From: a virus
Lineage: Duplodnaviria > Caudoviricetes
Length of the DNA: 64,000 nucleotides
IMG/VR virus record: IMGVR_UViG_3300044448_008243
Location: 8,088 to 72,087 of that record
Direction: 5' to 3' (one strand)
Under the pieces are notes generated by a model. It was not told the origin of the DNA. It saw nothing but the letters and a program-made list of their open reading frames with translations, and did no database searches. The position numbers were made by a program, and so were the translations under genes. Shown here piece by piece: positions 18,252 through 42,371 of this stretch; position 1 is the stretch's first letter; the number at the start of each line of letters is the position of its first letter.

Positions 18252-18262
18252 ATTATATATTA

Positions 18263-18339
18263 GGACCTCTAGCTCAGTTGGTTAGAGCACACCGCTCATA
18301 ACGGTTAGGTCCTCGGTTCGAGTCCGAGGGGGTCCACCA
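18263..18339 (+). tRNA. trnI: tRNA with a CAU anticodon, most likely Ile2 (lysidine-type), CCA encoded
   Basis: GGACCTC acceptor with an A discriminator resembles bacterial Ile2 tRNAs and lacks initiator features; anticodon CT-CAT-AA. Confidence 0.8.
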
Positions 18340-19334: not shown

Positions 19335-20108
19335 ATGGGTCACATTAGCTTTTCTGAGGCAAAAAACTGGAACTTTTGCCCTTTTTACCATAAATTAATG
19401 AACATTGACAAGGTAAAAGGCTTTGAAGGTAACGCTTTCACTGCTTTTGGTAATGCTATACACGACACCTGCGAAAAAATGATGACCGAAGGTTTAGACG
19501 ATAAAAAGTCGTTTTTTGACCTAAAATTTAAGGAAATCCTTGAAAATCTGCCTGAAAACGCTAATAAAGACCCAAAATTAGTCAATTCTATGCAAAATCA
19601 AGGTCCTTTAATACTGGATGAAGTACTTCCCGCCATGGAAGAGCACTTTGGAGAGTATAAAGTCCTCGCTGCCGAGGAAGACTTGATGGAAATGATTGAA
19701 GACTTCCCCTGTAAAGAGAAAAATAAGTTTAAAGGCTTTATTGACTTGGTTATTAAGACTTCTGACGGTAAAACACACATAATTGATTGGAAAACTTGCT
19801 CTTGGGGCTGGGATGCAAGGCGCAAAAGCGACCCAATGATGACATACCAGCTTACTTTTTACAAACATTATTGGGCGAAGAAACATAACGCTGACCCAAA
19901 GACAATAGAGACTCATTTCGCGCTACTTAAGAGAACTGCAAAAAAAGATAGAGTAGAAATATTTCGTGTAACGAGCGGAAAAATAAAAACTCAAAATGCA
20001 CTTAAATTTCTTGAAAAAGCGATTTACAATATTGAGAAGAAAAACTTCATTAAGAACAGACTTGCTTGTCGCAAGTGTGAATTTCACAGAACGGAATATT
20101 GCCCATGA
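19335..20108 (+). CDS. PD-(D/E)XK Cas4/RecB-like exonuclease with an Fe-S cysteine staple
   Basis: GFIDLV, IIDWKT and QLTFY; one N-terminal Cys (CPFY) plus C-terminal CRKC...YCP. Confidence 0.85.
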   Translation: MGHISFSEAKNWNFCPFYHKLMNIDKVKGFEGNAFTAFGNAIHDTCEKMMTEGLDDKKSFFDLKFKEILENLPENANKDPKLVNSMQNQGPLILDEVLPAMEEHFGEYKVLAAEEDLMEMIEDFPCKEKNKFKGFIDLVIKTSDGKTHIIDWKTCSWGWDARRKSDPMMTYQLTFYKHYWAKKHNADPKTIETHFALLKRTAKKDRVEIFRVTSGKIKTQNALKFLEKAIYNIEKKNFIKNRLACRKCEFHRTEYCP

Positions 20109-21361
20109 CAGATAAGAAAATTACGGTTTTAACCATTAGTGATCACCCACTATCGCCATCCGGTGTAGCAACTCAGACAAAATACATGATAGAAGCTTTA
20201 CTTTCTACAGGTAGATACAGGGTTATTTCTTTGGGTGGAGCAGTCAAGCATAACAAATATGAGCCACACTACGTTGATCCCCATGGAGAAGATTGGATTA
20301 TATTTCCAGTCGATGGATATGGGGAGCCGGATATTATAAGATCCGTAACTAGAAAATATAAACCAGATATTTTATGGTTTATGACAGACCCAAGATTTTA
20401 CGAGTGGCTTTGGATGATGGATAATGAAGTCAGAAACAATATTCCAATGGTTTATTATCATGTTTGGGACAATTACCCAGCTCCAGTTTTTAATAAGCAA
20501 TATTATGAATCAAACGATTTGGTGGCTTCAATATCAAAAGTCACGCACGACATCGTTTCTCAGGTTACTGATAGTGTAGAAAATATTTACTTACCTCATG
20601 CTGTTGACCACAATATATTTAAGCCGCTTGATAAAGAAGAAGTGCAGAAAATTAGGAAAGAACAAGGGTTAGAAAACAAAACTGTCTTTGTTTGGAACAA
20701 TAGAAATGCAAGAAGAAAACAAAGTGGATCTTTGATATATTGGTTTAAAAAATTCTGTGACAAAGTTGGACATGACAAAGCAGTGTTAATTATGCATACA
20801 GACCCGGCAGATCCATATGGTCAGCCCTTGGAACACTTAATACAACACTTTGGTGTGAATAATGGTCAAGTAAGATTATCAAAAAACAAAATTCCTCCAC
20901 AACAATTAGCAATGATGTATAATGTCGCCGATTGCACAATAAACATATCAGACGCAGAGGGATTCGGGCTGGCTACGCTAGAGTCCTTATCGTGTGGCAC
21001 TCCTATTATAGCAACAATGACTGGAGGTCTCCAAGAACAAGTTACAGATGGAGAAAATTGGTTTGGAATTGGCATTGAACCGTCTTCGAAAGCAGTAATT
21101 GGTTCTCATCAGGTGCCATACATATATGAGGACAGAATATCTGAAGATCAATTTGTAGATTCGCTAACAAAAATACACGAAATGAGCGATAAAGAAAGGT
21201 CTGATTTAGGAAAATCTGGTAGAGAGCATGTGAAGAAAAATTACTCTTTTGAGAAATTTCAAAATCAATGGGTAGAAGTGATGGATGAGGTAAATGAAAA
21301 ACATGGCTCTTGGGAAAATAGAAAAATTTATAAACCATGGAAATTAACACGGATTAATTAA
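20105..21361 (+). CDS. GT-B glycosyltransferase (family 4-like)
   Basis: SDHPLSPSGVATQ, NRNARRKQ and SDAEGFGLATLESLSCGTP. ATGA overlap start. Confidence 0.9.
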   Translation: MTDKKITVLTISDHPLSPSGVATQTKYMIEALLSTGRYRVISLGGAVKHNKYEPHYVDPHGEDWIIFPVDGYGEPDIIRSVTRKYKPDILWFMTDPRFYEWLWMMDNEVRNNIPMVYYHVWDNYPAPVFNKQYYESNDLVASISKVTHDIVSQVTDSVENIYLPHAVDHNIFKPLDKEEVQKIRKEQGLENKTVFVWNNRNARRKQSGSLIYWFKKFCDKVGHDKAVLIMHTDPADPYGQPLEHLIQHFGVNNGQVRLSKNKIPPQQLAMMYNVADCTINISDAEGFGLATLESLSCGTPIIATMTGGLQEQVTDGENWFGIGIEPSSKAVIGSHQVPYIYEDRISEDQFVDSLTKIHEMSDKERSDLGKSGREHVKKNYSFEKFQNQWVEVMDEVNEKHGSWENRKIYKPWKLTRIN

Positions 21362-21372
21362 AAGGGAATAGC

Positions 21373-22644
21373 ATGAGAAAGAAAATTTTAGTAAGAGCAC
21401 CTGTTCTGAGTAGGTCTGGGTATGGCGAACAGTCAAGGTTTGCTTTAAGATCACTTAGGAAACATGAGGATAGATTTGAAATATATTTAATTAATACCTC
21501 ATGGGGAGGCACTGGCTGGGTTACCGAAGATGATGAAGAGAGACAGTACATTGATTTTATAATTGAAAAAACTTATCACTTTCTTAATAACGGAGGCAAA
21601 TTTGACCTATCACTTCAGGTTACAATTCCAAATGAGTGGGAAAAATTAGCTCCATATAATGTTGGATATACTGCTGGTATAGAGACAACAAAGATAGCAC
21701 CGGAGTGGATAGAGAAGTGCAACATGATGAATAAAATAATCGTCACTTCCAATCATTCCAAACAAACAATGATAAATACTCAGTATGATCTTTATAGAAA
21801 AACCGGTCCAGACTCAAGTGAAAAAGCTGGTACTGCAAGTGTAACAGCCCCTGTAGAGGCAGTAGGATATCCAGTAAAACTAACAAAGAAAGAAAATGTG
21901 GATTTGCAATTAGAAACAGATTTCAATTTTTTGGTCGTGTCTCAATGGGGTCCCAGAAAAAATACAGTTGATACAATAAATATGTTTGTTAATAAGTTTA
22001 AAGATAACCCCAATGTCGGCTTGGTGCTAAAAGGTTTTCTTAAAAATAACTCGACTATCGATTCTATACAAGCTGAAGAATCTTTAAAAAGAGGTATACC
22101 AAAAGACGCTAAGTGTAAAGTATATCTCCTTCATGGAGATATGACAGACGAAGAGATGATAGGCTTATATTCTCATCCAAAAATTAAATGTCTCATTTCT
22201 CTGTCCCATGGTGAGGGCTGGGGTTTGCCCCTTTTTGAAGCTTCTTATACTGGGCTTCCAATTATCACAACTAATTGGAGTGGTCAGTGTGATTTCTTGA
22301 ACGTACCAACGAAACAAAGAAAAAAAGGCTCAAAAACAAAAACTAAAACAGTAAATAAGGCAATGTTTGGAGAAGTAAACTACACTCTTGGTCAAATACA
22401 AAAGGAAGCGGTATGGGACGGAGTTTTACAAGAAGACTCAATGTGGTGTTATCCGGATCAAAAAAGCTTTTTAAATGTTCTTGGAGACGTACATGAAAAT
22501 TATAAAAAATATGAGGACATGGCTAAAAAATTAAAAACTTGGGTAAGAAAAGAGTTTGAAGCAGAAAAGCAATATGATGCTTTTGCAAATGCTGTTGATA
22601 TCGGTCCTTCGCTAGGAAACCTTGATGTGGTAGAATTTAGTTAA
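21373..22644 (+). CDS. GT-B glycosyltransferase (family 4-like)
   Basis: SRSGYGEQSR, WGPRKN and HGEGWGLPLFEA. Confidence 0.88.
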   Translation: MRKKILVRAPVLSRSGYGEQSRFALRSLRKHEDRFEIYLINTSWGGTGWVTEDDEERQYIDFIIEKTYHFLNNGGKFDLSLQVTIPNEWEKLAPYNVGYTAGIETTKIAPEWIEKCNMMNKIIVTSNHSKQTMINTQYDLYRKTGPDSSEKAGTASVTAPVEAVGYPVKLTKKENVDLQLETDFNFLVVSQWGPRKNTVDTINMFVNKFKDNPNVGLVLKGFLKNNSTIDSIQAEESLKRGIPKDAKCKVYLLHGDMTDEEMIGLYSHPKIKCLISLSHGEGWGLPLFEASYTGLPIITTNWSGQCDFLNVPTKQRKKGSKTKTKTVNKAMFGEVNYTLGQIQKEAVWDGVLQEDSMWCYPDQKSFLNVLGDVHENYKKYEDMAKKLKTWVRKEFEAEKQYDAFANAVDIGPSLGNLDVVEFS

Positions 22645-24251
22645 TGAAGCAGATCATCCACATAGCAGATTTTTATGCTTCGGAGATTAGGGGAGGCGGC
22701 GAACTCGTAGATGAGATTGTCGTCTCTTCGCTCGTTAATAGGGGATACCCTGTAGCCAGAATAAAGTCTAAGAATGTAACAGAAAGGTTCATAAAAGAAA
22801 ACGCAGATAAACTTTTTATTGTTTCCAACTTTGTCATGCTGCCCGGTATGTGTATTAACTTACTCAAGTCTTGCGACTATGTGATATACGAACACGACCA
22901 CAAATATATTGTTGGGAGAGACCCTTCCCCCTACAAAGACTATAAAGTACCAGCTAACAGATTACTCAATCTAGATTTTTACAGAAGTGCTAAAGCGGTC
23001 TTCGCCCAGTCTAAGTTACACGCTGAAGTAATTAGCAAAAACATCAGAGAAGCAAATGTTATAAATCTAGGGTGCTCTTTGTGGTCAGACGAAGAGTTTG
23101 AAACCCTTCAGCAGTATGTGGATAGTAAAAAGAATGGCAAGATGGCTGTCCTAAACAGCACCAATCAGGTCAAGGGAACAGCGCAAGCTAAAAGTTTTTG
23201 TGAGCAAAATAAGATTGATTACAACTTTATTGTTTCACTAGATTATAACAACTTCATTAAGCAACTTGCGGAGCACGATGGTTTAGTTTTCTTTTCTCAG
23301 GTCCTCGAAACTTTCTGCCGTTTGGCTGTTGAAGCTCGTATTGTAAATTGCAAACTTAAAACCAATAATAACCTCGGCTGCGCTAGTGAGGAATGGTTCT
23401 CCAAATACAAAGGGCAAGAGCTTTTAGATTTTGTAAAGTCGCAAAAAACAAAGGTTATTGACAAGGTTGCGGAGGTTTTGGAAAGTGACAAAAGAACTGA
23501 AGCTACTAAAGCCCCTATTACAGTTATTTTAAATGCTTATCGTCGCCCATATAATCTTAGAATGCAGATTGATGCGATCAGGAAGCAGACAACTAGACCA
23601 ACACAGATTTGGCTGTGGGTAAATCAACACGAGGACAATGATGGATTCAATTTTAAAGAACTTAACCTTGATAGAATATTCCACAATGATTACAACTGGA
23701 AGTTCTATGGAAGGTTTGCCGCTGCTTTGTTGGCTGACACTGAGTATGTAGCCATATTTGATGACGATACTATTCCGGGCGAGAGGTGGTTTGAAAACTG
23801 CTTAGAGACAATGAAGACCAGCGAAGGCATTCTTGGATCGGCTGGTGTTACACTTAACGACAAGTTTTATGTCCAGCACGACCGCTGCGGGTGGCCTACG
23901 CAAAACAGTGAAACAACAAGAGTAGACCTAGTAGGACACGCTTGGTTCTTTAAGAGGGAGTGGCTGTCTCACCTGTGGAGAGAGAAGCCAACGACTTGGG
24001 ATAACGGTGAAGACATTCAGTTTTCATACCTTGCCCAGAAATACGGCAACATCCAAACATACTGCCCTCCACACCCACCAGAGGATAAAAGTCTCCACGG
24101 ATCTATCTTGGGCAACGAGTTGGGCATTGATATAAAAGCAACCTCAACTAACCAAGCAGTATCACATCAGCGTTTTTTCAACGAAAGAGATGTCTGCGTC
24201 CAGACAGCGATCAAGGGCGGCTGGGAAACTGTACGAGGCATAAAAGTATGA
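22644..24251 (+). CDS. Two-domain glycosyltransferase (GT-B-like + GT-A/GT2-like)
   Basis: N-half GGGE...ETFCRLAVEA; C-half ITVILNAYRRP...IFDDDTIPG...GEDIQFS. Confidence 0.8.
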   Translation: MKQIIHIADFYASEIRGGGELVDEIVVSSLVNRGYPVARIKSKNVTERFIKENADKLFIVSNFVMLPGMCINLLKSCDYVIYEHDHKYIVGRDPSPYKDYKVPANRLLNLDFYRSAKAVFAQSKLHAEVISKNIREANVINLGCSLWSDEEFETLQQYVDSKKNGKMAVLNSTNQVKGTAQAKSFCEQNKIDYNFIVSLDYNNFIKQLAEHDGLVFFSQVLETFCRLAVEARIVNCKLKTNNNLGCASEEWFSKYKGQELLDFVKSQKTKVIDKVAEVLESDKRTEATKAPITVILNAYRRPYNLRMQIDAIRKQTTRPTQIWLWVNQHEDNDGFNFKELNLDRIFHNDYNWKFYGRFAAALLADTEYVAIFDDDTIPGERWFENCLETMKTSEGILGSAGVTLNDKFYVQHDRCGWPTQNSETTRVDLVGHAWFFKREWLSHLWREKPTTWDNGEDIQFSYLAQKYGNIQTYCPPHPPEDKSLHGSILGNELGIDIKATSTNQAVSHQRFFNERDVCVQTAIKGGWETVRGIKV

Positions 24252-25243
24252 TTTTATTAAGTTTTGGAACAAGACCAGAGTGGATTAAGATTAAGCCATT
24301 GCTAGACCAAATGGATGGCAACATACCATACCGCTTGCTTTTCACAGGTCAACACACAGACCTACTCTCAAAAGTAGGCGAGGGTAAAGATTTAATAAAG
24401 TTAGAAATCAAAGACGGTCCAAATCGACTTGACTCCATCGTGAGTTCCGTTATGAACTTAGAGGAGATTTTCGAAGGCGTAACCTCTGTTTTGGTACAGG
24501 GAGATACGACCTCTGCTTTCTCTATTGCGTTAGCTGCTTTCCACAGAAGAATTAAAGTAATCCACTTGGAAGCAGGTCTAAGAACATATGATAAAAATCA
24601 ACCATATCCAGAGGAATTTAATCGACAAGCCATCTCTAGGATTGCCGACGTTCATCTTTGTCCAACCACAATGTCGAAAGACTTTTTAAAAAATGAAACA
24701 ACTCAAGGCAGAGTAGAAGTTGTAGGCAACACCGTGTTGGATAATCTGCGAGGGATACAAACAGAATACACAAATAAAGTTGTTGTAACGATGCATCGTA
24801 GAGAAAACCACCACAACATGGAAGATTGGTTTAAAGCTATTGACAAGATTGCTGAAGTAAATAAAGACTTGGAGTTTATTATTCCTCTGCATCCAAATCC
24901 CAATGTTCAAAAGCATAAGCATTTGCTAAAAAACCTTAAAATTGTTGAGCCAGTAGAGTATAATGAGTTCATAAAGTTGCTGGCTAAAACAAGGCTCGTT
25001 ATCACTGATTCTGGCGGCTTACAAGAGGAAACTTCTTTTCTAAAAAAGAAATGTATTGTATGTCGAAAGAAAACAGAAAGACTTGAAGGTGTCGGCACTT
25101 TTGCTTTAATGTGTCTTGAACCAGAGGATTTGGAAGGTCTTTTCAATCAAGTCAACGCAGATCATATACCTGTTGGAGACTGCCCCTATGGAGATGGATA
25201 CGCTGCTGAAAAAGTGTACGAGGTCTTAAAGGATGAAGTTTAA
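24248..25243 (+). CDS. wecB: UDP-N-acetylglucosamine 2-epimerase (non-hydrolysing)
   Basis: FGTRPE, TGQH, VQGDTTS, HLEAGLRT, PEEFNR, HRREN and TDSGGLQEE. Confidence 0.95.
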   Translation: MILLSFGTRPEWIKIKPLLDQMDGNIPYRLLFTGQHTDLLSKVGEGKDLIKLEIKDGPNRLDSIVSSVMNLEEIFEGVTSVLVQGDTTSAFSIALAAFHRRIKVIHLEAGLRTYDKNQPYPEEFNRQAISRIADVHLCPTTMSKDFLKNETTQGRVEVVGNTVLDNLRGIQTEYTNKVVVTMHRRENHHNMEDWFKAIDKIAEVNKDLEFIIPLHPNPNVQKHKHLLKNLKIVEPVEYNEFIKLLAKTRLVITDSGGLQEETSFLKKKCIVCRKKTERLEGVGTFALMCLEPEDLEGLFNQVNADHIPVGDCPYGDGYAAEKVYEVLKDEV

Positions 25244-26024: not shown

Positions 26025-26030
26025 AAGAGC

Positions 26031-36126: not shown

Positions 36127-36598
36127 AAAAACTTTTGTTTCTCTTTTGCATGAAGAGATGAGAAAAAATGAAGATATTGTTTTGATTGCGGGTGATTTGG
36201 GCTATAAGCATTTTGATGATTTGAGGGACGAATTCCCAGACAGATTTTTCAATCCGGGTGCTGCGGAACAACTTTTGGTTTCCATGGGAGTCGGTATGGC
36301 TCTTGAGGGAAAAATTCCTATCTGTTATTCAATGACTCCCTTTTTAATTTATCGACCATTTGAGGTTATTAGAAATTACCTAGAGAGAGATCAGATACCT
36401 GTAAAATTGTGCGGTGCAGGAAGGGACAAGGATTATGACTGGCTAGGATGGTCTCATTGGGCTGTGGACGACAGAGCCCATATGAGTGGCTTTGAAAACA
36501 TCGTTAAAATTTGGCCAGAAGATGCACAAGAAACACAAGCACTTTTTAATCAAATTATTTATGATAAAAAACCATACTATGTAAATTTGTCACGATAA
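36116..36598 (+). CDS. Transketolase-like pyrimidine-binding subunit (no C-terminal domain)
   Basis: GDLG, FPDRFFNPGAAEQ and GWSHWAVDD. Confidence 0.9.
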   Translation: MSVRKTFVSLLHEEMRKNEDIVLIAGDLGYKHFDDLRDEFPDRFFNPGAAEQLLVSMGVGMALEGKIPICYSMTPFLIYRPFEVIRNYLERDQIPVKLCGAGRDKDYDWLGWSHWAVDDRAHMSGFENIVKIWPEDAQETQALFNQIIYDKKPYYVNLSR

Positions 36599-36599
36599 A

Positions 36600-37040
36600 A
36601 TGATAAAAATAGCACACAGAGGCAACACAGAGGGTCCAAAGCCGTCATTAGAAAATAGCCCTTCCCACATAAATTCAGCTCTACAAAAAGGATACAATGT
36701 CGAAATAGATGTATGGTATGTGGGCGGCTCTTTGTTTTTGGGGCACGACAAGCCAGACCACAAAGTTTCAATTGAATATTTGAAAAACGATAAATTCTGG
36801 TGTCACTGCAAAAACATAGAAGCATTAAAAATATTACTCTCTAATGATATCAGGTGTTTTTTTCATGATAGCGACGAGGCTACACTAACTAGTGACAATT
36901 ATATCTGGACTTATTCTGGAAAAGAAATAACTTCAAAGTCAATTTGTGTAATGCCCGAAAAAGACAATTGGAAAATTCCTCAGATCGCCGCTGGCGTTTG
37001 TAGTGATTATGTTGATAACATAGGAGAGATCATAGGATGA
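36600..37040 (+). CDS. Glycerophosphodiester-phosphodiesterase-like protein
   Basis: IAHRGN, VEIDVW, LGHD and WCHCKN. Confidence 0.75.
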   Translation: MIKIAHRGNTEGPKPSLENSPSHINSALQKGYNVEIDVWYVGGSLFLGHDKPDHKVSIEYLKNDKFWCHCKNIEALKILLSNDIRCFFHDSDEATLTSDNYIWTYSGKEITSKSICVMPEKDNWKIPQIAAGVCSDYVDNIGEIIG

Positions 37041-38026
37041 GTTTTTGGAAAGATAAAAAAGTTATGGTTACAGGAGGAGCGGGTTTGATTGGATCCGCTC
37101 TTTCTGCTAATTTGGTTAAGTGTGGATCAAAGGTTACAATTGTTGATAATTTTGAGAGGGGCAAGTTTGATTACATAGTTGATATCATGGACGATTGCAT
37201 TGTCAAAAACGCCGACTTAAGAGAAGCGAGATTTTGTGACCTGTATATAAAAGATTACGATATTGTTATTCATATGGCTTCCAAGGTCGGCGGCATTGGA
37301 TATTACACTTCGCGTCCATATGAGGTTATGAGTGAGAATTTAAAAATGGATTCCAATGTTTTATCAGCATGTGTAAAAAATAATATCCCAATGTTTTTCT
37401 ATGCCAGTAGCGCCCATGTGTACCCAAAAGAATTACAAGGAACACCAGACTCGCCGCTTATTAGAGAGGAACAAGCGGAACCTGCCAATCCAGAGTTATC
37501 TTATGGGTGGGCTAAACTAATCACAGAAAAGCAAATTGAAGCAGCGGTCCAGCAAAGTTCAAATTTTAAAGCAGCGATTGCAAGATATATTGGAATATAC
37601 GGTAAAAACCAAGACTTTGGTTTAGATACGGGCTCTGTAATTCCAGTATTTTGTAACCGAGCTATAAACCACCCGGATGTAGAATTTAATGTTTGGGGCA
37701 ATGGAAAAGAAACTCGTTCCTATTGTTTTATAGAAGATGCCATTGAGGGCACCAAAGCAATGATTGAGGCAATGGATTCCAAAAACATGGTCGGACCATA
37801 TAATCTTGGCAAACAAGAAAGGGTCTCAATCGGAGAAATAGCAGAAAAAGTTATTGCAATTTCTGATAAAAACATTATAATAAACTTTGACACATCTAAA
37901 GAAACTCTTATTTGGGGTCAATGGTGTGATTGTAGTAAAATCAAAAATGACTTAGGCTGGGAAGCTACAACCAGCTTAGAAGATGGACTAAAGGTGGTGT
38001 ACGAAGATGTCAAATCAAGAATCTAG
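37037..38026 (+). CDS. NAD-dependent epimerase (GDP-mannose 3,5-epimerase-like)
   Basis: TGGAGLIG, HMASKVGGIG, YGWAK and WGNGKETRSY. Confidence 0.9.
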   Translation: MSFWKDKKVMVTGGAGLIGSALSANLVKCGSKVTIVDNFERGKFDYIVDIMDDCIVKNADLREARFCDLYIKDYDIVIHMASKVGGIGYYTSRPYEVMSENLKMDSNVLSACVKNNIPMFFYASSAHVYPKELQGTPDSPLIREEQAEPANPELSYGWAKLITEKQIEAAVQQSSNFKAAIARYIGIYGKNQDFGLDTGSVIPVFCNRAINHPDVEFNVWGNGKETRSYCFIEDAIEGTKAMIEAMDSKNMVGPYNLGKQERVSIGEIAEKVIAISDKNIIINFDTSKETLIWGQWCDCSKIKNDLGWEATTSLEDGLKVVYEDVKSRI

Positions 38027-38420
38027 AAAATATTTACCAACCCTCTCAGAGTTAATTGACAGGCTTTCAATTTCTCAACTAAAGGAGGTTTTTATTACAG
38101 ACCATAAAGATGAATATTCCCAAGAAATTGCTGACATAGTACATGATATTCAGCTTTGCTTGGACCAGCAAGACGGCAAGGTTACTGCTGAGACAATAAG
38201 AGCTATCGTGGTTTTATCTCAAATGAATTTACATATCTGGCACAATGAGTCAAATTATCGTAAGGGAATTAAAGATGGCAACAATTTAGAATTAACTCAC
38301 GGACTCAATGGAATTAGAAATACGGCTAAAAATAAAATTCAAGAAATTGTAGGCGGAAGAAAAGATTATAAAGTTGACTGCCTCGCCGCAGATTTTGAAG
38401 ATTGGGAGATTAGCTGGTAA
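38007..38420 (+). CDS. Helical protein of the DUF4254/DUF6165-like type
   Basis: TLSELIDRLSI...NLHIWHNE...NGIRN pattern; island context. Confidence 0.5.
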   Translation: MSNQESRKYLPTLSELIDRLSISQLKEVFITDHKDEYSQEIADIVHDIQLCLDQQDGKVTAETIRAIVVLSQMNLHIWHNESNYRKGIKDGNNLELTHGLNGIRNTAKNKIQEIVGGRKDYKVDCLAADFEDWEISW

Positions 38421-39172
38421 TGAGAGTCTTGGTTGTTGGCGATGCTTGCGAAGATGTATATGTTTACGGACACTGTAAGAGGCTGGCACCCGAAGCACCA
38501 GTTCCAGTATTTGTTAAAGACAAAGAAAAACGAAATGGCGGCATGGCCTTAAATGTATATGAAAATTTGAAATCACTAGGTGTTGAATGCGATATTCTGC
38601 ACAATGAAAAACATATAGAAAAGACCAGATATGTAGAAGAGAAAACGAATCACATATTCATAAGAATTGATTCTGATGAATCAGACATTAAAAGAATTAA
38701 CAAAAAATATTTGACAAAAAAATATCTTTCACAATATGATGCGGTTGTAATATCTGATTATAACAAAGGATTCTTATCTGAAGAGGATATTGAGACAATA
38801 TGTTACAGGCACCCCCTCACATTCATGGATACCAAAAAATCTTTAGGTCGTTGGTGCAAAGATTGTAAATGGATAAAGATAAACGAAATAGAATTTGAAA
38901 AAACTAGTTCAAATCTTTTTGGCTTAGAGCACATATTTGAAGAAAAGCTAATTGTCACACTTGGGGATAAGGGATGTTCTTATAACGGCAAAACATACGA
39001 TGTTCAGAAAGTAGAAATAAAAGATCTGTGTGGCGCAGGAGACACCTTTTTGTCAGGCTTTGTAACAAGGTACTTGCAATCAAAAGACATTGATGAGGCA
39101 TTAAAATTCGCCAATGAGTGTGCTACAATAGTGGTACAACAGAAAGGGGTTAATGTCATCAATGGAATTTAA
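38420..39172 (+). CDS. HldE/RfaE domain I-like heptose kinase (PfkB family)
   Basis: VVGDA..D.Y..G...RLAPEAPVPV, GGMALNV, ISDYNKG and DLCGAGDTF. Confidence 0.92.
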   Translation: MRVLVVGDACEDVYVYGHCKRLAPEAPVPVFVKDKEKRNGGMALNVYENLKSLGVECDILHNEKHIEKTRYVEEKTNHIFIRIDSDESDIKRINKKYLTKKYLSQYDAVVISDYNKGFLSEEDIETICYRHPLTFMDTKKSLGRWCKDCKWIKINEIEFEKTSSNLFGLEHIFEEKLIVTLGDKGCSYNGKTYDVQKVEIKDLCGAGDTFLSGFVTRYLQSKDIDEALKFANECATIVVQQKGVNVINGI

Positions 39173-39452
39173 AGAGTACTATGAATATTATTTGACATTA
39201 CACCAAAACAAGTGGTGTCGCAGACTCCACGCCCTTGGGCAAGCAACAACAATTTCCTTTGTAGTTTTTTGTTTGTTTAATTCTTTCTTTCTTGCTTTGT
39301 TGGCTACCCCTTTTATTATCTATCCATTCGCGTGGTCAGGTCACTTCTTTTTTGAAAAGAATAAGCCAGCAGCTTGGTCCAATCCTGTGTGGGCAAAAGC
39401 TTGTGACTGGGTAATGCTCAAGGACATGATCACAGGGAGGATAAAATTTTAA
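39162..39452 (+). CDS. DUF962/Mpo1-like small membrane protein
   Basis: YYLTLHQN..CRRLHALG, AWSGHFFFEKNKPA and D..M. Confidence 0.85.
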   Translation: MEFKEYYEYYLTLHQNKWCRRLHALGQATTISFVVFCLFNSFFLALLATPFIIYPFAWSGHFFFEKNKPAAWSNPVWAKACDWVMLKDMITGRIKF

Positions 39453-40379
39453 ATGAAAATATTAATAACAGGCGGAGCAGGATATATCGGCAGCGAATTA
39501 GTTGGATATCTCATAGATAAACATCAGGTATATGTTGTTGATAGCTTACTCTATGATAGAACGTCCCTTTTAAGATACGTAAACCATCCCAATTTTCATT
39601 TTGAAAAGGCGGATGTAAGAGACCATTCTGTTTTGGAAAGATATATGAAAGAGTGTGATGTGGTTATTCCACTCGCTGCCTTAGTGGGATTTCCTTTGTG
39701 CGACCAGAGACCCCAAGAAGCTATTGATGTTAACTATGGAGCTTGTGAGTGGGTTGCTAAAAACAAATCTAAAGATCAGATGGTTGTCTATCCCTGTACT
39801 AATTCGGGATATGGGACGAGTGAAAATGGCAAGGTCATTACAGAAGATGACCCCCTAAATCCTATTTCCCTCTATGGGAGAACAAAAGTGGACGCAGAAG
39901 CCATCTTCAGAGAAACTGAAAACTGTACTACATTTAGGTTAGCAACTGTATTTGGTCCATCAACAAGGGCGAGGAGTGACTTGTTGGTAAATAATTTTGT
40001 TTTGAAAGCGATTAGGGACAGGGTACTTGTGCTTTACGAGTGTGAGTTTATGAGAAACTATGTTCACATTTGGGATGTATGTAAGGCGTTCACTCAGGTT
40101 ATTGAAAACTGGGACACATTCAAGAATGATACCTACAATGTTGGTAATGATATTATCAACATGAATAAACTCCAGCTCGCTGAAACTATTAAGAAATATA
40201 CTCCACTAGAAATCATCAAGGCTGAGTTTACTTCAGACCCAGATAAGCGAGATTACATTGTAAGTAGCCAAAAAATCTATGATAAGGGCTATTCCTGCGA
40301 CTATGATTTGGACGACGGAATCAAGCAGATGATTAAAGTTTATAACTTAATTGATGAGCCTTGGTATGCAAACTACTAA
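39453..40379 (+). CDS. NAD-dependent epimerase/dehydratase
   Basis: TGGAGYIG, LAALVG, YGRTK and RLATVFG. Confidence 0.9.
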   Translation: MKILITGGAGYIGSELVGYLIDKHQVYVVDSLLYDRTSLLRYVNHPNFHFEKADVRDHSVLERYMKECDVVIPLAALVGFPLCDQRPQEAIDVNYGACEWVAKNKSKDQMVVYPCTNSGYGTSENGKVITEDDPLNPISLYGRTKVDAEAIFRETENCTTFRLATVFGPSTRARSDLLVNNFVLKAIRDRVLVLYECEFMRNYVHIWDVCKAFTQVIENWDTFKNDTYNVGNDIINMNKLQLAETIKKYTPLEIIKAEFTSDPDKRDYIVSSQKIYDKGYSCDYDLDDGIKQMIKVYNLIDEPWYANY

Positions 40380-40770
40380 CATCTGGGTAAATGGTTGCTT
40401 CGACATTTTACATCGAGGTCATATAGAGCTTTTAAAATTTGCTAAATCTCAAGGAGATACTCTAACCATCGGTATCGACACTGATGAGAGAGTAAAAAGC
40501 TCAAAAGGTCCCAGCAGACCTTTCAATAATACTGAAGACCGAAAAGCTTTCTTGGAGGCAATCAAGTATGTTGACAGAGTTGTGACCTATGGATCTAACG
40601 AAGAGCTAGAAAAACACTTAGTAGACAATAACATCGATGTGATGATCATTGGTTCAGACTGGAAAGGGAAGACCGTTGTAGGAGAAAAACTAGTGAAAAA
40701 AGTAGTTTTTTTTGATAGAATAGGGACATACTCAACAACGAGAATTTTAGAAAATGAAATACGTATTTGA
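40366..40770 (+). CDS. HldE/RfaE domain II-like adenylyl/cytidylyltransferase
   Basis: NGCFDILHRGH, GIDTD, KGPSRP, GSDW and YSTT. Start corrected to 40366. Confidence 0.92.
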   Translation: MQTTNIWVNGCFDILHRGHIELLKFAKSQGDTLTIGIDTDERVKSSKGPSRPFNNTEDRKAFLEAIKYVDRVVTYGSNEELEKHLVDNNIDVMIIGSDWKGKTVVGEKLVKKVVFFDRIGTYSTTRILENEIRI

Positions 40771-41089
40771 CATTGACGGCACAATTTGCGACAAAAATAA
40801 TAACGACGATTATGACAAATCGTATCCGTTTTTAGAGAGAATAAGAAAAATTAATAAACTCTACGATGAGGGGCACTACATAGTATTTTTTACTGCAAGA
40901 GGCATGGGTAGGCACAATAACAATGCGTCATTAGCGATCCGTGACTTTTATTCTTTGACAGAAAAACAACTAAAACATTGGGGTGTTAAGCACCACCAAC
41001 TAATTCTTGGTAAGCCCAGTGGAGATTTATACATAGACGATAAGGGGATTAAAGATGGAGACTTCTTTGCCAATGAACTTCGTCCCTAA
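40754..41089 (+). CDS. Small HAD phosphatase (capsule-biosynthesis phosphatase type)
   Basis: FDIDGTIC, FTARGM, GKP and YIDDK. Confidence 0.88.
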   Translation: MKYVFDIDGTICDKNNNDDYDKSYPFLERIRKINKLYDEGHYIVFFTARGMGRHNNNASLAIRDFYSLTEKQLKHWGVKHHQLILGKPSGDLYIDDKGIKDGDFFANELRP

Positions 41090-41414
41090 AGGATGGGGTT
41101 TTGAAAAGTGGATTGTAAATAATGAAGAATACTGCGGAAAACTGCTTTATTTTGTTAAAGGCAAACGATGCTCTTGGCATTATCACGAATTGAAAGACGA
41201 AGTATTTTACATCCAATCTGGCAAGATCTTAGTCAAGTATTCTGACGGCGATGACATTAATAATGCAAAGGAAAAAATACTTTCTAGAGGAGACAATTTC
41301 CACGTCTATCGCGGTCTAAGGCATCAAATGATTGCCTTGGAAGATACAGAATTATTTGAATTTTCAACACAACACTTTGACAGCGACAGTCACAGGATCC
41401 AAAAAGGTGATTAA
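41073..41414 (+). CDS. Cupin sugar isomerase-like protein (mannose-6-P/D-lyxose isomerase type)
   Basis: KGWGFEKW, SWHYHELKDEVF and RHQM. Start corrected to 41073. Confidence 0.85.
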   Translation: MNFVPKGWGFEKWIVNNEEYCGKLLYFVKGKRCSWHYHELKDEVFYIQSGKILVKYSDGDDINNAKEKILSRGDNFHVYRGLRHQMIALEDTELFEFSTQHFDSDSHRIQKGD

Positions 41415-42371
41415 ATGAAGTTGGTTGTAATCACAGGCTGTTTAGGTTTCATTGGCTCTCATGTAACTAGGAAATGTCTTGATCTGGGATGGAAAGTCTA
41501 CGGAGTTGATAGCATGACATATGCTTCCAATCCTGATTTGATAGACGATTTTTGCTATGAATACCCTGATAATTTCACGTATGTAAACGAAGACATCGCA
41601 GATTTAAAGTATCTACCTGATTGTGATTACATTATTAATACGGCCGCTGAAACCCATGTTGGGAACAGCATTATAGATAGCAAAGACTTTCTAAGGTCCA
41701 ACATTGATGGAGTACAGAACCTACTTGATTTAATAAAGTCAAAACCAAACAATGTTGACAATCGACCGATTTTGTTTCATTTTAGTACAGATGAGGTATA
41801 CGGAGATATTGTAGAGGGAGAACATTACGAAACAGATCACCTAAACCCAAGCAATCCTTATTCCGCTTCCAAAGCAGCTGCTGACATGTTAATTACTGCT
41901 TGGGCGAGAACCTACGGAATAGAATACATTATTTTCCGCCCAACAAATAACTACGGGGAGTATCAATACCCAGAGAAACTTATTCCTTTATCAGTAAAAC
42001 TTTTGCAGCGAGGTAAAAAGATTAGACTTCACAACGAAGGAAAGCCAATTAGGAACTGGCTACATGCCGAAGATACGGCAAGTGCAGTTATAAGTATTAT
42101 AAATAGTGGGAAAACAAACGACATCTACAACGTTGCCGGTGGTTTTGAGCAAGAAAATCGTGAAACAGTGAGGAAAATTATTAAAGCCTATTATGGAACT
42201 GATAAAAACTGGGAACAATATGTTGATTTGGGATATAAAAGACTCGGACAAGACGTAAGGTATGCTCTAAACGATGACAAATTGAGGTCTTTGGGGTGGA
42301 AACCACAAAAAATATTTAACGAAGAGATACAAAAAGTGGTACAATTCTATGTAGATAACTTTAAATGGTAG
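41415..42371 (+). CDS. rfbB: dTDP-glucose 4,6-dehydratase
   Basis: TGCLGFIG, AAETHV, STDEVYG, PYSASK, NNYGEYQYPEKLIP and R.GQDVRY. Confidence 0.92.
   Translation: MKLVVITGCLGFIGSHVTRKCLDLGWKVYGVDSMTYASNPDLIDDFCYEYPDNFTYVNEDIADLKYLPDCDYIINTAAETHVGNSIIDSKDFLRSNIDGVQNLLDLIKSKPNNVDNRPILFHFSTDEVYGDIVEGEHYETDHLNPSNPYSASKAAADMLITAWARTYGIEYIIFRPTNNYGEYQYPEKLIPLSVKLLQRGKKIRLHNEGKPIRNWLHAEDTASAVISIINSGKTNDIYNVAGGFEQENRETVRKIIKAYYGTDKNWEQYVDLGYKRLGQDVRYALNDDKLRSLGWKPQKIFNEEIQKVVQFYVDNFKW

What the first reader, a model, noticed from the sequence alone, without database searches (positions are those of the whole stretch)
20105..42371. 22-kb glycan-synthesis island lacking any export machinery: candidate cytoplasmic virion (or DNA) glycosylation system
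About 27 co-oriented, mostly overlapping genes encode at least five likely glycosyltransferases (GT4-like x2, a GT-B+GT-A fusion, GT11, GT-D-like), a methyltransferase, an ATP-grasp ligase and several NDP-sugar pathways (ManNAc, fucose, dTDP-deoxysugar, amino sugar, heptose-like). Bacterial O-antigen and capsule loci normally include Wzx/Wzy or ABC exporters and an undecaprenyl priming transferase. None is visible here; the only clear membrane protein is a 96-aa Mpo1-like one. The acceptor is therefore probably soluble. The island sits directly before the baseplate genes, and several virion proteins are S/T/N-rich. Capsid glycosylation is known in some actinobacteriophages and giant viruses, but a self-contained multi-sugar pathway of this size in a myovirus would be notable. 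Alternatives are LPS-core remodelling on the cytoplasmic face and hypermodified DNA.
Basis: partly seen in the sequence, partly recalled or inferred. Interest (0 to 1): 0.8.

Follow-up and report, generated by a model that had tools for sequence, protein, structure and literature searches.

The report
Exporter-free glycan island of Far-T4 phage
An uncultured marine T4-like phage gives 22 kb to soluble sugar-making and sugar-joining enzymes with no export machinery; this type of island is already known from ocean phages, but here its first third is conserved across a whole phage clade, and it may sugar-coat the phage's own tail proteins.

Summary
Bases 20099-42371 hold 29 co-oriented, mostly overlapping genes: 7 glycosyltransferase proteins (8 GT domains), WecB, a methyltransferase, an ATP-grasp ligase and several NDP-sugar routes. 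No priming transferase, Wzx, Wzy or ABC-2 exporter is present on the contig. Five 95-100% complete relatives (175-192 kb) have no Wzx, one of them scanned whole has no exporter-sized membrane protein, and 79 related loci have none either.

It is not a new kind. P-SSM2/S-SM2-type cyanophage "LPS" clusters share its 3' module at 43-66% identity and also lack exporters. This scan has met such islands in more than 100 genomes.

New points:
- The island has a conserved core (GT4-GT4, an EXT-like two-domain GT, WecB, a GT-D-fold GT, a truncated DegT) and a swappable shell.
- The GT4 pair is syntenic in cultured Far-T4 phages of Flavobacterium and Microcystis; Rhodothermus phage RM378 keeps the first GT4 in the same place.
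- The ordered tripeptide S/T-G/A-S is 5-fold enriched in the two proteins after the baseplate wedge, and its positions turn over between orthologues. T4 lacks it; phage immuto has it.

Best reading: cytoplasmic O-glycosylation of distal tail proteins (0.45). Rivals: host envelope glycan via host exporters (0.3), DNA (0.06). No chemistry exists.

The parts
19335..20108 (+). PD-(D/E)XK nuclease; the conserved upstream anchor of the island
   Evidence: Pfam PF12705, E 2e-17. Found in 63 of 79 related loci. Lies in the same place in phages immuto and Mel-JY01 at 27% identity.
20099..21361 (+). GT4a, a retaining GT-B glycosyltransferase (conserved core)
   Evidence: Glycos_transf_1, E 1e-15. The EX7E motif (E287-E295) is at least 95% conserved. 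Found in 68 of 79 loci at median 60% identity. 31% identity in immuto, 29% in Mel-JY01, 28% in RM378. Best solved sequence relatives are BshA and the chlorovirus GT B736L.
21373..22644 (+). GT4b, a second GT4 (conserved core)
   Evidence: Glycos_transf_1, E 1e-9. EX7E motif E281-E289 is conserved. Found in 69 of 79 loci at median 46%. 31% identity in immuto, 29% in Mel-JY01.
22644..24251 (+). 535-aa two-domain transferase: GT-B-like N half plus GT-A C half with a DDD motif (conserved core)
   Evidence: GT2 domain at residues 293-413. AF2 model pLDDT 89. The fold resembles EXT1/EXT2, KfiA (TM 0.64 on the target), PmHS2 and K4CP. More than 600 full-length homologues at 56-94% identity in marine metagenomes and 298 stretches in IMG/VR.
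24248..25243 (+). Non-hydrolysing UDP-GlcNAc 2-epimerase (WecB), makes UDP-ManNAc (conserved core)
   Evidence: TIGR00236, 240 bits, above the curated cutoff of 210. Found in 60 of 79 loci at median 58%.
25233..26024 (+). GT-D-fold glycosyltransferase, no Pfam hit (conserved core)
   Evidence: AF2 model pLDDT 94. Foldseek hits 4phr, 4pfx and 5v4a (DUF1792/dGT1), E 2e-5, TM 0.5. D27-G28-E29 is invariant in 32 sequences. The model also matches giant-virus GT fusions. Found in 69 of 79 loci.
26031..28307 (+). SDR, ATP-grasp ligase and HAD hydrolase; a rare insert where most relatives carry a GNAT acetyltransferase
   Evidence: Pfam and NCBIfam hits. Present in only 2 of 79 loci. The GNAT gene in a relative is at L009:13409-13831.
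28291..28917 (+). Truncated DegT-family PLP enzyme, 208 aa (conserved core)
   Evidence: DegT, E 3e-27. Keeps the SFHxxK lysine motif but lacks about 65 internal residues and the C-terminal domain. Found in 62 of 79 loci at median 73% identity. 39% identical to a 214-aa gene of immuto.
28918..29775 (+). FkbM-type methyltransferase (variable shell)
   Evidence: PF05050, E 4e-20. Found in 1 of 79 loci.
29754..30653 (+). GT11 fucosyltransferase-type GT (semi-conserved)
   Evidence: PF01531, E 6e-26. Found in 28 of 79 loci. 28% identical to the S-SM2 GT11.
30638..31645 (+). CgeB-like Glyco_trans_1_2 transferase (variable shell)
   Evidence: PF13524, E 7e-9. Found in 21 loci at about 33% identity.
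31642..32574 (+). GDP-L-fucose synthase-like SDR
   Evidence: NF047922, 283 bits, below the curated cutoff of 500.
32574..33542 (+). 322-aa protein with a weak WavE hit; possibly a further transferase
   Evidence: PF07507, E 7e-4, below the cutoff. No NCBIfam hit.
33539..35492 (+). KdsC-like HAD phosphatase, weak PfkB-like kinase and sugar-1-P nucleotidyltransferase (second NDP-sugar route)
35476..37040 (+). Split transketolase (N part, pyrimidine-binding part) plus a 146-aa unknown
   Evidence: PF00456 and PF02779 hits. The same split occurs in L046. The 146-aa protein is 38% identical to an S-SM2 gene.
37037..38026 (+). Extended SDR epimerase/dehydratase
   Evidence: PF01370, E 5e-41.
38007..38420 (+). 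137-aa protein seen mainly in viruses, function unknown, very conserved
   Evidence: No Pfam, NCBIfam or PDB match. 83-90% identity in 14 loci. The nearest Atlas clusters are 78-100% viral.
38420..39172 (+). RfaE-domain-I-like PfkB sugar kinase (3' module shared with cyanophages)
   Evidence: TIGR02198, E 3e-38. 51% identical to the S-SM2 gene and 43% to the P-SSM2 gene.
39153..39452 (+). Mpo1-like small membrane protein; the only hydrophobic product of the island
   Evidence: PF06127, E 1e-28. One strong hydrophobic segment. Found in only 2 loci.
39453..40379 (+). SDR epimerase/reductase
   Evidence: PF01370, E 2e-30.
40351..41414 (+). HIGH-type nucleotidyltransferase, small HAD phosphatase and cupin (ADP-heptose-like route; cyanophage gene clusters T4-GC 304, 306, 307)
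   Evidence: 43-66% identical to the S-SM2 and P-SSM2 genes.
41415..42371 (+). dTDP-glucose 4,6-dehydratase-like SDR; the conserved 3' end of the island
   Evidence: TIGR01181, 292 bits, below the cutoff of 365. 69% identical in G002, at the same junction.
59077..61017 (+). 646-aa protein directly after the baseplate wedge; candidate glycan acceptor
   Evidence: [ST][GA]S occurs 11 times against 2.2 expected (0 of 1000 shuffles). Five permuted tripeptides are at expectation. The G002 orthologue has 12 sites, only 3 of them in shared alignment columns.
61017..63998 (+). Fibre-like protein of more than 994 aa with a ConA-like lectin domain; candidate glycan acceptor (runs off the window end)
   Evidence: Laminin_G_3 domain. 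[ST][GA]S occurs 16 times against 3.0 expected (0 of 1000 shuffles), but the reverse motif is also raised, at 10.
18223..18339 (+). Perfect sigma-70 consensus promoter followed by tRNA-Met, at the head of the gap-free gene array that contains the island
   Evidence: TTGACA-17-TATAAT, 12 of 12 matches. tRNA-Met at 18263-18339. Conserved only in close relatives.

Best explanation
The island is the glycan-assembly locus of an uncultured marine Far-T4-type myovirus, probably of a Bacteroidota-like Gram-negative host. All of its enzymes work in the cytoplasm.

Shell (variable middle and 3' genes): makes activated sugars. These are UDP-ManNAc, a GDP-fucose-type sugar, a dTDP-6-deoxy/amino sugar and one or two NDP-heptose-type sugars fed by a phage transketolase. 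It also tailors them by O-methylation and by amide ligation through the ATP-grasp enzyme.

Core (conserved in the clade): GT4a, GT4b, the EXT-like two-domain GT, the GT-D GT, WecB and the mini-DegT. These lay down an inner oligosaccharide. GT11, the CgeB-like GT and other swappable enzymes extend it.

Acceptor (inferred): the phage's own distal baseplate and fibre proteins, O-glycosylated on Ser/Thr in S/T-G/A-S contexts before or during tail assembly. No lipid carrier, flippase or polymerase would then be needed.

Shown: the gene content, the lack of membrane machinery, the core/shell anatomy, the clade-wide synteny and the motif statistics.
Inferred: the sugar identities, the order of transfer and the acceptor.
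For: 1. No priming, flipping, polymerising or ABC-2 gene on the contig. No Wzx in five 95-100% complete relatives. No exporter-sized membrane ORF in a complete 186-kb relative or in 1.43 Mb of related loci. Cellular homologues of the GT-A half lie next to a fused ABC exporter.
2. The core genes are as conserved as PhoH and the nuclease: mean pairwise identity 49-60%, mini-DegT 75%, against 61% and 52%. Their pairwise distances correlate with those of PhoH (rho 0.37-0.47).
3. Nuclease-GT4a-GT4b is syntenic in Flavobacterium phage immuto and Microcystis phage Mel-JY01. GT4a is in the same place in Rhodothermus phage RM378. The hosts belong to different phyla, which argues for an acceptor that does not depend on the host.
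4. The conserved 263-aa protein has the GT-D fold with an invariant DxE motif. The solved members are the Fap1/serine-rich-repeat protein O-glycosylation enzymes. GT-D look-alikes also occur in giant-virus GT fusions.
5. The island lies between the PhoH/nuclease genes and the baseplate module in a complete relative too.
6. Ordered [ST][GA]S: 11 against 2.2 and 16 against 3.0 in the two proteins after the wedge (0 of 1000 shuffles each). In the 646-aa protein the permuted tripeptides are at expectation. The wedge, gp25 and the giant protein show none. In complete relative G002 the most enriched ORFs lie in the structural region or match fibre and sheath families. Orthologues at 50% identity keep the density (11 and 12 sites) but share only 3 positions. 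Thirteen T4 structural proteins have 4 against 11.6 expected. Cultured phage immuto shows the same pattern: gp111 5 against 0.8, gp102 9 against 2.2, spike gp101 53 against 12.2, wedge 0.
Against: - No chemical evidence exists for any phage of this clade.
- The motif could be a structural turn of fibre folds or the mark of another modification. In the 994-aa protein and in immuto gp101 the reverse tripeptide is also raised, so local composition contributes.
- The motif came from an earlier unchecked note of this scan.
- RM378 gives only low counts in unannotated proteins.
- The gene families (WecB, DegT, GT11, heptose route, KdsC-like) are those of LPS and capsule loci. The 535-aa enzyme most resembles capsule and heparosan polymerases, whose products are lipid-anchored and exported.
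- The island is contiguous with PhoH, a nuclease and a sigma-70-driven tRNA. It lies upstream of the candidate late box at 43827 rather than behind it.
- GT4 sequence relatives include enzymes with small-molecule and lipid acceptors.
Confidence: 0.45

Rival explanations
1. Host envelope remodelling. The soluble transferases build on a host lipid-linked acceptor at the cytoplasmic face: Und-PP-GlcNAc, lipid A-core, or a Bacteroidota O-glycan precursor. Host MsbA, PglK-type or Wzx flippases and host ligases then move the product outward. The changed cell surface would block superinfection or stop progeny phage being trapped on cell debris. This is the standard literature reading of cyanophage and pelagiphage 'LPS' clusters.
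For: - The gene families are typical of LPS and capsule loci.
- The literature proposes this role for the P-SSM2 and pelagimyophage clusters (PMC1079782, PMC7824862, PMC7029224).
- The 3' module is shared with those clusters at 43-66% identity.
- The 535-aa GT resembles capsule polymerases.
- Cellular homologues work beside ABC flippases that a host could supply.
- A PAP2 (Und-PP or lipid A phosphatase-type) gene is present in a complete relative.
- The island shares a transcription unit with non-structural genes.
- From general knowledge: LPS-core assembly and prophage TarP need no dedicated exporter.
Against: - The GT4 pair and the mini-DegT are conserved, in the same order, in phages of Bacteroidota and Cyanobacteria, and GT4a also in a Rhodothermus phage. 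The envelope glycans of these hosts differ.
- The core evolves like the vertically inherited phage backbone.
- From general knowledge, every characterised seroconverting phage system includes membrane proteins (GtrABC, Oac, Wzy). None is present here.
- This reading does not explain the ordered tail-protein motif.
- No experiment has ever supported this role for any T4-like phage cluster.
Confidence: 0.3
2. DNA hypermodification. The conserved transferases glycosylate a modified base in phage DNA, as in T-even phages or the roughly 1-kDa thymidine adduct of YerA41. This would protect the DNA from restriction, and the shell genes would diversify the glycan.
For: - The GT4 pair sits among nuclease, RNR and replication genes in RM378 and Mel-JY01.
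- Clade-wide conservation fits an acceptor made by the phage itself.
- There is precedent for an oligosaccharide-like DNA adduct in a large myovirus that carries several GT genes (PMC9023294).
Against: - No thymidylate-synthase-family (dCMP/dUMP hydroxymethylase) gene on this contig, in five complete relatives, in Mel-JY01 or in RM378. Where dTMP synthesis is encoded it is ThyX or, in immuto, an ordinary ThyA hit, so no hydroxymethylase is co-conserved with the GTs.
- No Tet/JBP hit, although that search had no positive control.
- Eight GT domains plus heptose, fucose and methyl tailoring, and a polymerase-like enzyme, are hard to reconcile with packaged DNA.
Confidence: 0.06
3. Another soluble product: a free cytoplasmic oligo- or polysaccharide released at lysis, a glycosylated small molecule or secondary metabolite, or glycosylation of a host or non-virion phage protein.
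For: - The closest solved sequence relatives of GT4a include BshA, MshA, sucrose-phosphate synthase and TreT, which act on small soluble acceptors.
- Iyer et al. proposed secondary-metabolite roles for neighbouring cyanophage clusters.
- There is no exporter.
Against: - Nothing specific points to this.
- Five conserved GT domains plus a hypervariable sugar shell is the pattern of a surface-exposed heteroglycan.
- It does not explain the tail-protein motif.
Confidence: 0.1

Closest known systems
P-SSM2 / S-SM2-type 'LPS' gene clusters of T4-like cyanomyoviruses (Sullivan 2005, PMC1079782; Iyer 2021, PMC7824862 section 3.4.10)
   Same: - A large marine T4-like myovirus with a co-oriented block of 15-26 genes.
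- Several SDR epimerase/dehydratase paralogues, a cupin, a PfkB kinase, a HIGH nucleotidyltransferase, a HAD phosphatase, a transketolase, GT11 and other GTs.
- Direct homology of the kinase-NTase-HAD-cupin module at 43-66% identity.
- Both complete cyanophage genomes also lack Wzx, WecA and WbaP.
- The function has never been tested.
   Different: - The 5' core (GT4a, GT4b, the 535-aa two-domain GT, the GT-D GT, the mini-DegT) has no homologue in cyanophages.
- It belongs to the Far-T4 lineage: the major capsid protein is nearest Mel-JY01, immuto and RM378.
- Here the island has a fixed slot between PhoH/nuclease and the baseplate genes.
Pelagimyophage host-recognition cluster glycosyltransferases (Zaragoza-Solas 2020, PMC7029224)
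   Same: Glycosyltransferases and rfaE-type sugar genes lie beside tail and fibre genes in abundant marine T4-like phages, and their role is only inferred.
   Different: That paper reports mainly GT8 enzymes and reads them as O-chain modification. The core genes of this island have no match in the cultured pelagiphage or any other GenBank phage apart from Far-T4 relatives.
Mycobacteriophage virion O-glycosylation (Che8, Corndog, Myrna; Freeman et al. 2023, cited in PMC12619734 ref. 45)
   Same: Phage-encoded soluble transferases decorate the phage's own structural proteins in the cytoplasm with no export machinery. This is the mechanism proposed here.
   Different: - From memory: two to four GT genes, Gram-positive-type hosts, acceptors at the C-terminal tails of the capsid and tail-tube subunits.
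- Here: 8 GT domains plus full sugar pathways, a Gram-negative host, and candidate acceptors that are distal baseplate and fibre proteins with an internal tripeptide motif.
- No sequence homology was tested.
Giant-virus autonomous glycosylation (chlorovirus capsid glycans, Mimivirus fibril glycans; general knowledge)
   Same: A virus-encoded NDP-sugar pathway works with cytoplasmic GTs and methyltransferases, independent of host secretory machinery. GT-D-like and GT4 relatives occur in giant viruses.
   Different: Those are eukaryotic viruses. The similarity is at the level of fold and family only.
Streptococcal serine-rich-repeat adhesin glycosylation (Fap1: GtfA/B, Gtf3, dGT1 with its GT-D domain; PDB 4pfx, 4phr, 5v4a)
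   Same: Cytoplasmic, stepwise O-glycosylation of a protein by GT4-type, GT-A and GT-D enzymes. The GT-D fold and DxE motif are shared.
   Different: - Both phage GT4s keep the catalytic EX7E motif, so this is not a GtfA/GtfB catalytic-plus-chaperone pair.
- GtfA is not among the solved sequence relatives of GT4a.
- There are no serine-rich repeat acceptors.
Seroconverting phage systems (GtrABC, Oac, Wzy variants) and prophage TarP (general knowledge)
   Same: Phage-encoded modification of host surface glycans. TarP shows that a soluble phage GT can rely on host exporters.
   Different: Those are one to three genes in temperate phages, and the Gtr, Oac and Wzy types include integral membrane proteins, which are absent here.

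Membership tests
Bacterial Wzx/Wzy- or ABC-transporter-dependent O-antigen/capsule locus | Initiating polyprenyl-phosphate transferase (WecA PF00953 or WbaP PF02397) | tested here: not met
   No hit on the contig, nor in complete S-SM2 and P-SSM2. The controls hit 10-13 of 14 genomes.
Bacterial Wzx/Wzy- or ABC-transporter-dependent O-antigen/capsule locus | Flippase, polymerase or ABC-2 permease (PF01943, PF04932, PF01061) | tested here: not met
   No hit on the contig. No Wzx in five 95-100% complete relatives. No exporter-sized membrane ORF in complete relative G002 or in 79 loci.
Bacterial Wzx/Wzy- or ABC-transporter-dependent O-antigen/capsule locus | NDP-sugar synthesis genes clustered with several glycosyltransferases | tested here: met
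P-SSM2-type glycan cluster of large marine myoviruses | Lies in a T4-like marine myovirus genome, flanked by phage genes | tested here: met
   PhoH, gp25 and the baseplate wedge flank it. The major capsid protein of a relative hits Gp23.
P-SSM2-type glycan cluster of large marine myoviruses | SDR paralogues + cupin + PfkB kinase + HIGH nucleotidyltransferase + several GT families (as described by Iyer 2021) | tested here: met
   Five SDR-fold epimerase/dehydratase genes, a cupin, two PfkB genes, a HIGH NTase, and GTs of the GT4, GT2, GT11, GT-D and CgeB-like types.
P-SSM2-type glycan cluster of large marine myoviruses | Sequence homology to the cyanophage module T4-GC 304-307 | tested here: met
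   43-66% identity over the full length.
Phage virion glycosylation system (mycobacteriophage type) | Glycans shown on capsid or tail proteins by mass spectrometry | not testable with these tools
   Needs virions. The cultured relative immuto could be used.
Phage virion glycosylation system (mycobacteriophage type) | Soluble phage GTs beside structural genes, with no export machinery | tested here: met
   The 3' end of the island abuts the baseplate module here and in G002. No membrane machinery is present.
Phage virion glycosylation system (mycobacteriophage type) | Recognisable acceptor feature on structural proteins | tested here: inconclusive
   There are no S/T-rich C-terminal tails or serine-rich repeat tracts. 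However, ordered S/T-G/A-S is 5-fold enriched in distal tail proteins, with positional turnover. It is not shown to be a sequon.
T-even-type DNA glycosylation | dCMP/dUMP hydroxymethylase (thymidylate-synthase family) that provides the acceptor base | tested here: not met
   PF00303 is absent from the contig, from five complete relatives, and from Mel-JY01 and RM378.
GT-D (DUF1792) glycosyltransferases | GT-D fold | tested here: met
   Foldseek against 4phr, 4pfx and 5v4a: E 2e-5 to 2e-4, probability 1.0, TM about 0.5, on a model with pLDDT 94.
GT-D (DUF1792) glycosyltransferases | DxE metal-binding motif | tested here: met
   D27-G28-E29 is invariant in 32 homologues. That this is the family's motif is from memory of the dGT1 paper.
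GT-D (DUF1792) glycosyltransferases | Match to Pfam PF08759/PF22882 | tested here: not met
   No Pfam hit at E 0.01, so this is a distant member at best. A relative's neighbouring gene gives weak GT-D hits.
Seroconverting Gtr/Oac/Wzy phage modules | Integral membrane components | tested here: not met
   No multi-pass membrane ORF.

The most novel reading that the evidence does not exclude
Far-T4 phages as a clade, abundant in oceans and lakes and including the cultured phages immuto, Mel-JY01 and RM378, sugar-coat their own distal tail proteins at S/T-G/A-S sites. They would use an ancient, vertically inherited GT4 pair, extended in the marine lineage to five conserved GT domains, together with a rapidly swapped shell of rare-sugar pathways. 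This would be the first virion glycosylation system in T4-like phages of Gram-negative hosts. It would also give a function to the 'LPS clusters' of marine myoviruses, which have lacked one for about 20 years.
Probability: 0.4. Interest if true: 0.75.

Novelty: new variant of a known kind. Interest (0 to 1): 0.55.

Why it matters
Marine T4-like phages spend 10-14% of their genomes on such islands: 25.6 kb of 186 kb in a complete relative. Since 2005 these islands have been called 'LPS genes' without any test.

If the glycan ends up on the virion, two things follow. Phage particles in the sea would carry strain-specific sugar coats that could affect adsorption, stickiness to particles, grazing and decay. 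And many 'auxiliary metabolic gene' annotations would be wrong.

This work makes the question directly testable. It identifies a conserved core, candidate acceptor proteins with a candidate motif, and a cultured phage (Flavobacterium phage immuto) that carries the same GT4 pair, mini-DegT and motif pattern.

Tried and rejected
- Megablast of the island against GenBank phages: no match.
- tblastn of the 535-aa GT and of the GT-D protein against GenBank phages: no match.
I used the search for related loci instead.
- Moraphage lineage (PMC12619734) considered as the home clade. Rejected: different genome size and not shown to be related.
- GtfA/GtfB-like catalytic-plus-dead GT4 pair. Rejected because both GT4s keep EX7E and GtfA is not among the solved sequence relatives.
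- Late-promoter timing. The ACTA[TGC]TTA box from earlier notes is not enriched overall (13 found, 9.1 expected), and TATAAATA is at chance. Timing arguments are therefore weak. The perfect sigma-70 promoter at 18223 mainly serves a tRNA and is conserved only in close relatives.
- Tet/JBP search: no hits, but no control genome hit either, so it is uninformative.
- Only multi-pass ORF in the related loci (L063): a PHO4-like phosphate transporter, not a glycan exporter.
- Serine-rich repeat acceptors: none.
- RM378 motif scan: 2.2-fold enrichment genome-wide and a cluster of enriched ORFs at 64.8-78.5 kb. These ORFs are unannotated, my tail proteins find no match there, and PHROGs gave only two weak structural hits, so the result is inconclusive.
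- P-SSM2 fibre region: only weak enrichment (26 found, 19 expected). The motif is therefore not established for cyanophage clusters.
- Chimeric or host-derived contig. Rejected: the GC content of the island (0.31-0.40) matches its flanks, and the island with both junctions recurs in dozens of viral contigs.

Full report
WHAT IS THERE

The window is bases 8088-72087 of a 72,087-bp linear IMG/VR contig, which is a fragment. From 20099 to 42371 there are 29 + strand ORFs. They overlap or are at most 12 nt apart. GC content is 0.31-0.40, like the flanks.

Pfam and NCBIfam assign these functions:
- two GT4 transferases
- a 535-aa protein with a GT2 domain
- a non-hydrolysing UDP-GlcNAc 2-epimerase (above the curated cutoff)
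- an SDR, an ATP-grasp ligase and HAD hydrolases
- a 208-aa DegT fragment
- an FkbM methyltransferase
- GT11
- a CgeB-like Glyco_trans_1_2 protein
- a GDP-fucose-synthase-like SDR
- a KdsC-like phosphatase
- a sugar-1-P nucleotidyltransferase
- a transketolase split into pieces
- three more extended SDRs
- a kinase like RfaE domain I and a HIGH nucleotidyltransferase like RfaE domain II
- a small HAD phosphatase and a cupin
- an RmlB-like 4,6-dehydratase

Two structure predictions, each built on an alignment of natural relatives, added two points:
- The unannotated 263-aa protein (pLDDT 94) has the GT-D fold of DUF1792/dGT1, with an invariant D-G-E motif.
- The 535-aa protein (pLDDT 89) is a GT-B-like plus GT-A fusion. 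It resembles exostosins and the bacterial heparosan and chondroitin enzymes KfiA, PmHS2 and K4CP.

NO EXPORT MACHINERY

- A hydropathy scan found no multi-pass membrane ORF on the contig. The 99-aa Mpo1-like protein is the only clearly hydrophobic island product.
- Six-frame searches for WecA-type, WbaP-type, Wzx, Wzy and ABC-2 families found nothing on the contig. Each family hit 10-14 of the 14 control genomes.

Because the contig is partial, I went to relatives:
- The 535-aa transferase has more than 600 full-length homologues at 56-94% identity in marine metagenomes and 298 stretches in IMG/VR.
- Five of the contigs carrying it are 175-192 kb and 95-100% complete. None has a Wzx.
- I fetched one complete genome of 185,927 bp. 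No ORF has more than five hydrophobic segments, and the single five-segment ORF is a PAP2 phosphatase far from the island.
- In 79 related loci (1.43 Mb, 2,439 ORFs) the only ORF with five or more such segments is a PHO4-like phosphate transporter.
- In real bacterial chromosomes (Vibrio splendidus, Marinomonas), the stand-alone homologue of the GT-A half sits beside a fused ABC_membrane+ABC_tran exporter and RmlA/RmlB/DegT genes. The phage version has lost, or never had, what the cellular loci carry.

NOT A NEW KIND

The kinase, nucleotidyltransferase, HAD and cupin genes at the 3' end are 43-66% identical to a module of the T4-like cyanophages S-SM2 and P-SSM2.
- S-SM2 has a 20-kb block of about 26 genes with the same mix: transketolase, kinase, nucleotidyltransferases, epimerases, two GT11 and one GT25.
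- P-SSM2 was described in 2005 as carrying 24 'LPS' genes, proposed to alter the host surface.
- Iyer et al. 2021 describe this composition almost gene for gene.
- Pelagimyophages carry GTs beside their fibre genes.
- The complete S-SM2 and P-SSM2 genomes also lack Wzx, WecA and WbaP.
- Earlier notes of this scan show look-alike stretches in 137 windows of 103 genomes, several with the same 'no exporter' remark.

WHAT IS NEW: CORE AND SHELL

I ran tblastn with every window ORF against the 79 loci. The following syntenic block is conserved:
- PhoH (60 loci)
- a 98-aa and a 231-aa protein
- the PD-(D/E)XK nuclease (63 loci)
- GT4a (68 loci, median 60% identity)
- GT4b (69 loci, 46%)
- the 535-aa GT (71 loci)
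- WecB (60 loci, 58%)
- the GT-D GT (69 loci, 41%)
- the truncated DegT (62 loci, 73%)

Most relatives have a GNAT acetyltransferase in front of the mini-DegT. This window instead has SDR + ATP-grasp + HAD, which only 2 loci share.

The middle of the island varies. Relatives carry carbamoyltransferase, C-methyltransferase, GDSL/SASA esterase, SIS isomerase and other GTs.

The 3' module is conserved again. In the complete relative the island is 25.6 kb and has the same junctions on both sides, ending directly before the baseplate genes.

The core genes are as conserved as PhoH and the nuclease. Their pairwise distances correlate with those of PhoH about as well as the nuclease's do. They therefore belong to the vertically inherited, recombining backbone and are not recent host loot.

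THE LINEAGE

- The major capsid protein of the complete relative is nearest those of Microcystis phage Mel-JY01, Flavobacterium phage immuto and Rhodothermus phage RM378. This is the Far-T4 group.
- The literature predicts marine Bacteroidota as hosts of marine Far-T4 phages.
- GT4a has full-length GenBank-phage homologues only in immuto (31%), Mel-JY01 (29-30%) and one uncultured 484-kb phage, with a 74% match in RM378 (28%). The few other hits are partial.
- The order nuclease-GT4a-GT4b is kept in immuto and Mel-JY01.
- RM378 keeps GT4a in the same place, followed by an unassigned 425-aa gene.
- immuto also has a 214-aa mini-DegT at 39% identity.
- Both GT4s keep the EX7E catalytic motif.
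- The paper on Far-T4 genomics does not mention these genes.

A transferase pair kept in place across phages whose hosts lie in different phyla argues for an acceptor that does not depend on the host's surface chemistry.

WHICH ACCEPTOR

DNA is unlikely. No thymidylate-synthase-family gene, the source of hydroxymethyl-pyrimidines, is found on this contig, in five complete relatives, in Mel-JY01 or in RM378. Some of these genomes have ThyX instead. YerA41 does show that oligosaccharide-like DNA adducts exist, so I keep the DNA reading at 0.06.

- In this window it occurs 11 times against 2.2 expected in the 646-aa protein directly after the baseplate wedge, and 16 against 3.0 in the next, fibre-like protein. 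In both cases 0 of 1000 composition-preserving shuffles reached the observed count.
- In the 646-aa protein, five permutations of the same residues are at expectation.
- The wedge, gp25 and the 3205-aa protein have none or one.
- In the complete relative the most enriched ORFs are the orthologue of the 646-aa protein, the 2896-aa protein that follows it, a 445-aa ORF with no family match, a fibre-like protein and the tail sheath.
- The two orthologues are 50% identical and carry 11 and 12 sites, but share only 3 alignment columns. Density is kept while positions turn over, which is not how a fixed structural motif behaves.
- Thirteen T4 structural proteins show 4 against 11.6 expected.
- P-SSM2 fibres are only weakly enriched.
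- Cultured immuto repeats the pattern: gp111 5 against 0.8, gp109 8 against 2.4, gp102 9 against 2.2, gp101 53 against 12.2, wedge 0.
- RM378 is inconclusive.

This is correlation only. In two proteins the reverse motif is also raised. Fibre folds could favour such turns.

WEIGHING

For the host-envelope reading:
- the gene families
- the polymerase-like enzyme
- the PAP2 gene in relatives
- contiguity with non-structural genes behind a sigma-70 promoter, which mainly drives a tRNA
- the fact that LPS-core assembly and TarP-type enzymes need no dedicated exporter

For a phage-own protein acceptor:
- the cross-phylum synteny
- backbone-like evolution of the core
- total absence of the membrane parts that all known seroconverting phage systems have
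- the GT-D fold
- the fixed place before the baseplate genes
- the tail-protein motif

I put virion protein glycosylation at 0.45, host envelope remodelling at 0.30, another soluble product at 0.10 and DNA at 0.06.

VERDICT

The island is a new variant (the Far-T4 core-plus-shell form) of a known kind of phage island, and this scan has seen it repeatedly on other DNA. Its value lies in making an old open question testable on a cultured phage.

Noticed in passing
window 2-832 (+, 5' open): Adenylosuccinate-synthetase homologue (Pfam E 1e-63), 60% identical to a gene in complete relative G002 (172755-173741). It could be a purine auxiliary gene or a PurZ-type enzyme of 2-aminoadenine DNA. Not examined.
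   Followed up: no
window 28291-28917: A DegT-family protein of only 208 aa. It keeps the SFHxxK lysine motif but lacks about 65 internal residues and the whole C-terminal domain. It is nevertheless the most conserved island gene (median 73% identity in 62 loci; 39% to a 214-aa gene of phage immuto). It may be a repurposed PLP enzyme.
   Followed up: partly
window 38007-38420: A 137-aa protein with no Pfam, NCBIfam or PDB match. It is 83-90% identical in 14 related loci, and its nearest Atlas clusters are 78-100% viral. It sits inside the sugar island and its function is unknown.
   Followed up: partly
window 18223-18339: A perfect sigma-70 consensus promoter (TTGACA-17-TATAAT) directly in front of a tRNA-Met gene, between PhoH and the gene array that leads into the island. 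It is conserved only in close relatives.
   Followed up: yes
window 12507-13658: A TubZ/PhuZ-like tubulin-family GTPase (Tubulin, Tubulin_2 and TubZ-like_C domains). It was found in only 7 of the 79 related loci.
   Followed up: no
window 15205-15837 (-) and 14137-14757 (+): A phage-encoded protein with a TonB C-terminal domain and one N-terminal hydrophobic segment, which points to a Gram-negative host. A ClpP-family protease lies next to it.
   Followed up: no
G002:C1:169479-170135 (L093:17479-18135): A PAP2-superfamily phosphatase (Und-PP or lipid A phosphatase type). It is the only 5-segment membrane ORF in a complete 186-kb relative and lies far from the island.
   Followed up: partly
L063:6476-7429: A PHO4-like phosphate transporter inserted between the nuclease and GT4a in one relative; a phosphate auxiliary gene inside the conserved block.
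   Followed up: partly
whole contig (G000): CheckV completeness is given as 10%. Relatives rated 95-100% complete are 175-192 kb, so a 72-kb piece should be near 38%. The estimate looks wrong for this lineage.
   Followed up: partly
window 47202-56819: A 3205-aa ORF between the island and gp25 with no Pfam hit and hydrophobic segments near residues 2010-2340. A 2854-aa (open-ended) counterpart lies in L002. It is not enriched in the S/T-G/A-S motif.
   Followed up: partly
window 1899-3266: A 455-aa protein of unknown function that also shows the S/T-G/A-S excess (5 against 1.4 expected; 14 of 1000 shuffles reach 5). It lies in the region that earlier notes read as packaged head proteins.
   Followed up: partly
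window 9352-10488 (-) and 14754-15221 (+): A protein with an S-adenosylmethionine-lyase-like domain (a possible anti-restriction function), and a separate 155-aa cytidylyltransferase-like protein outside the island.
   Followed up: no
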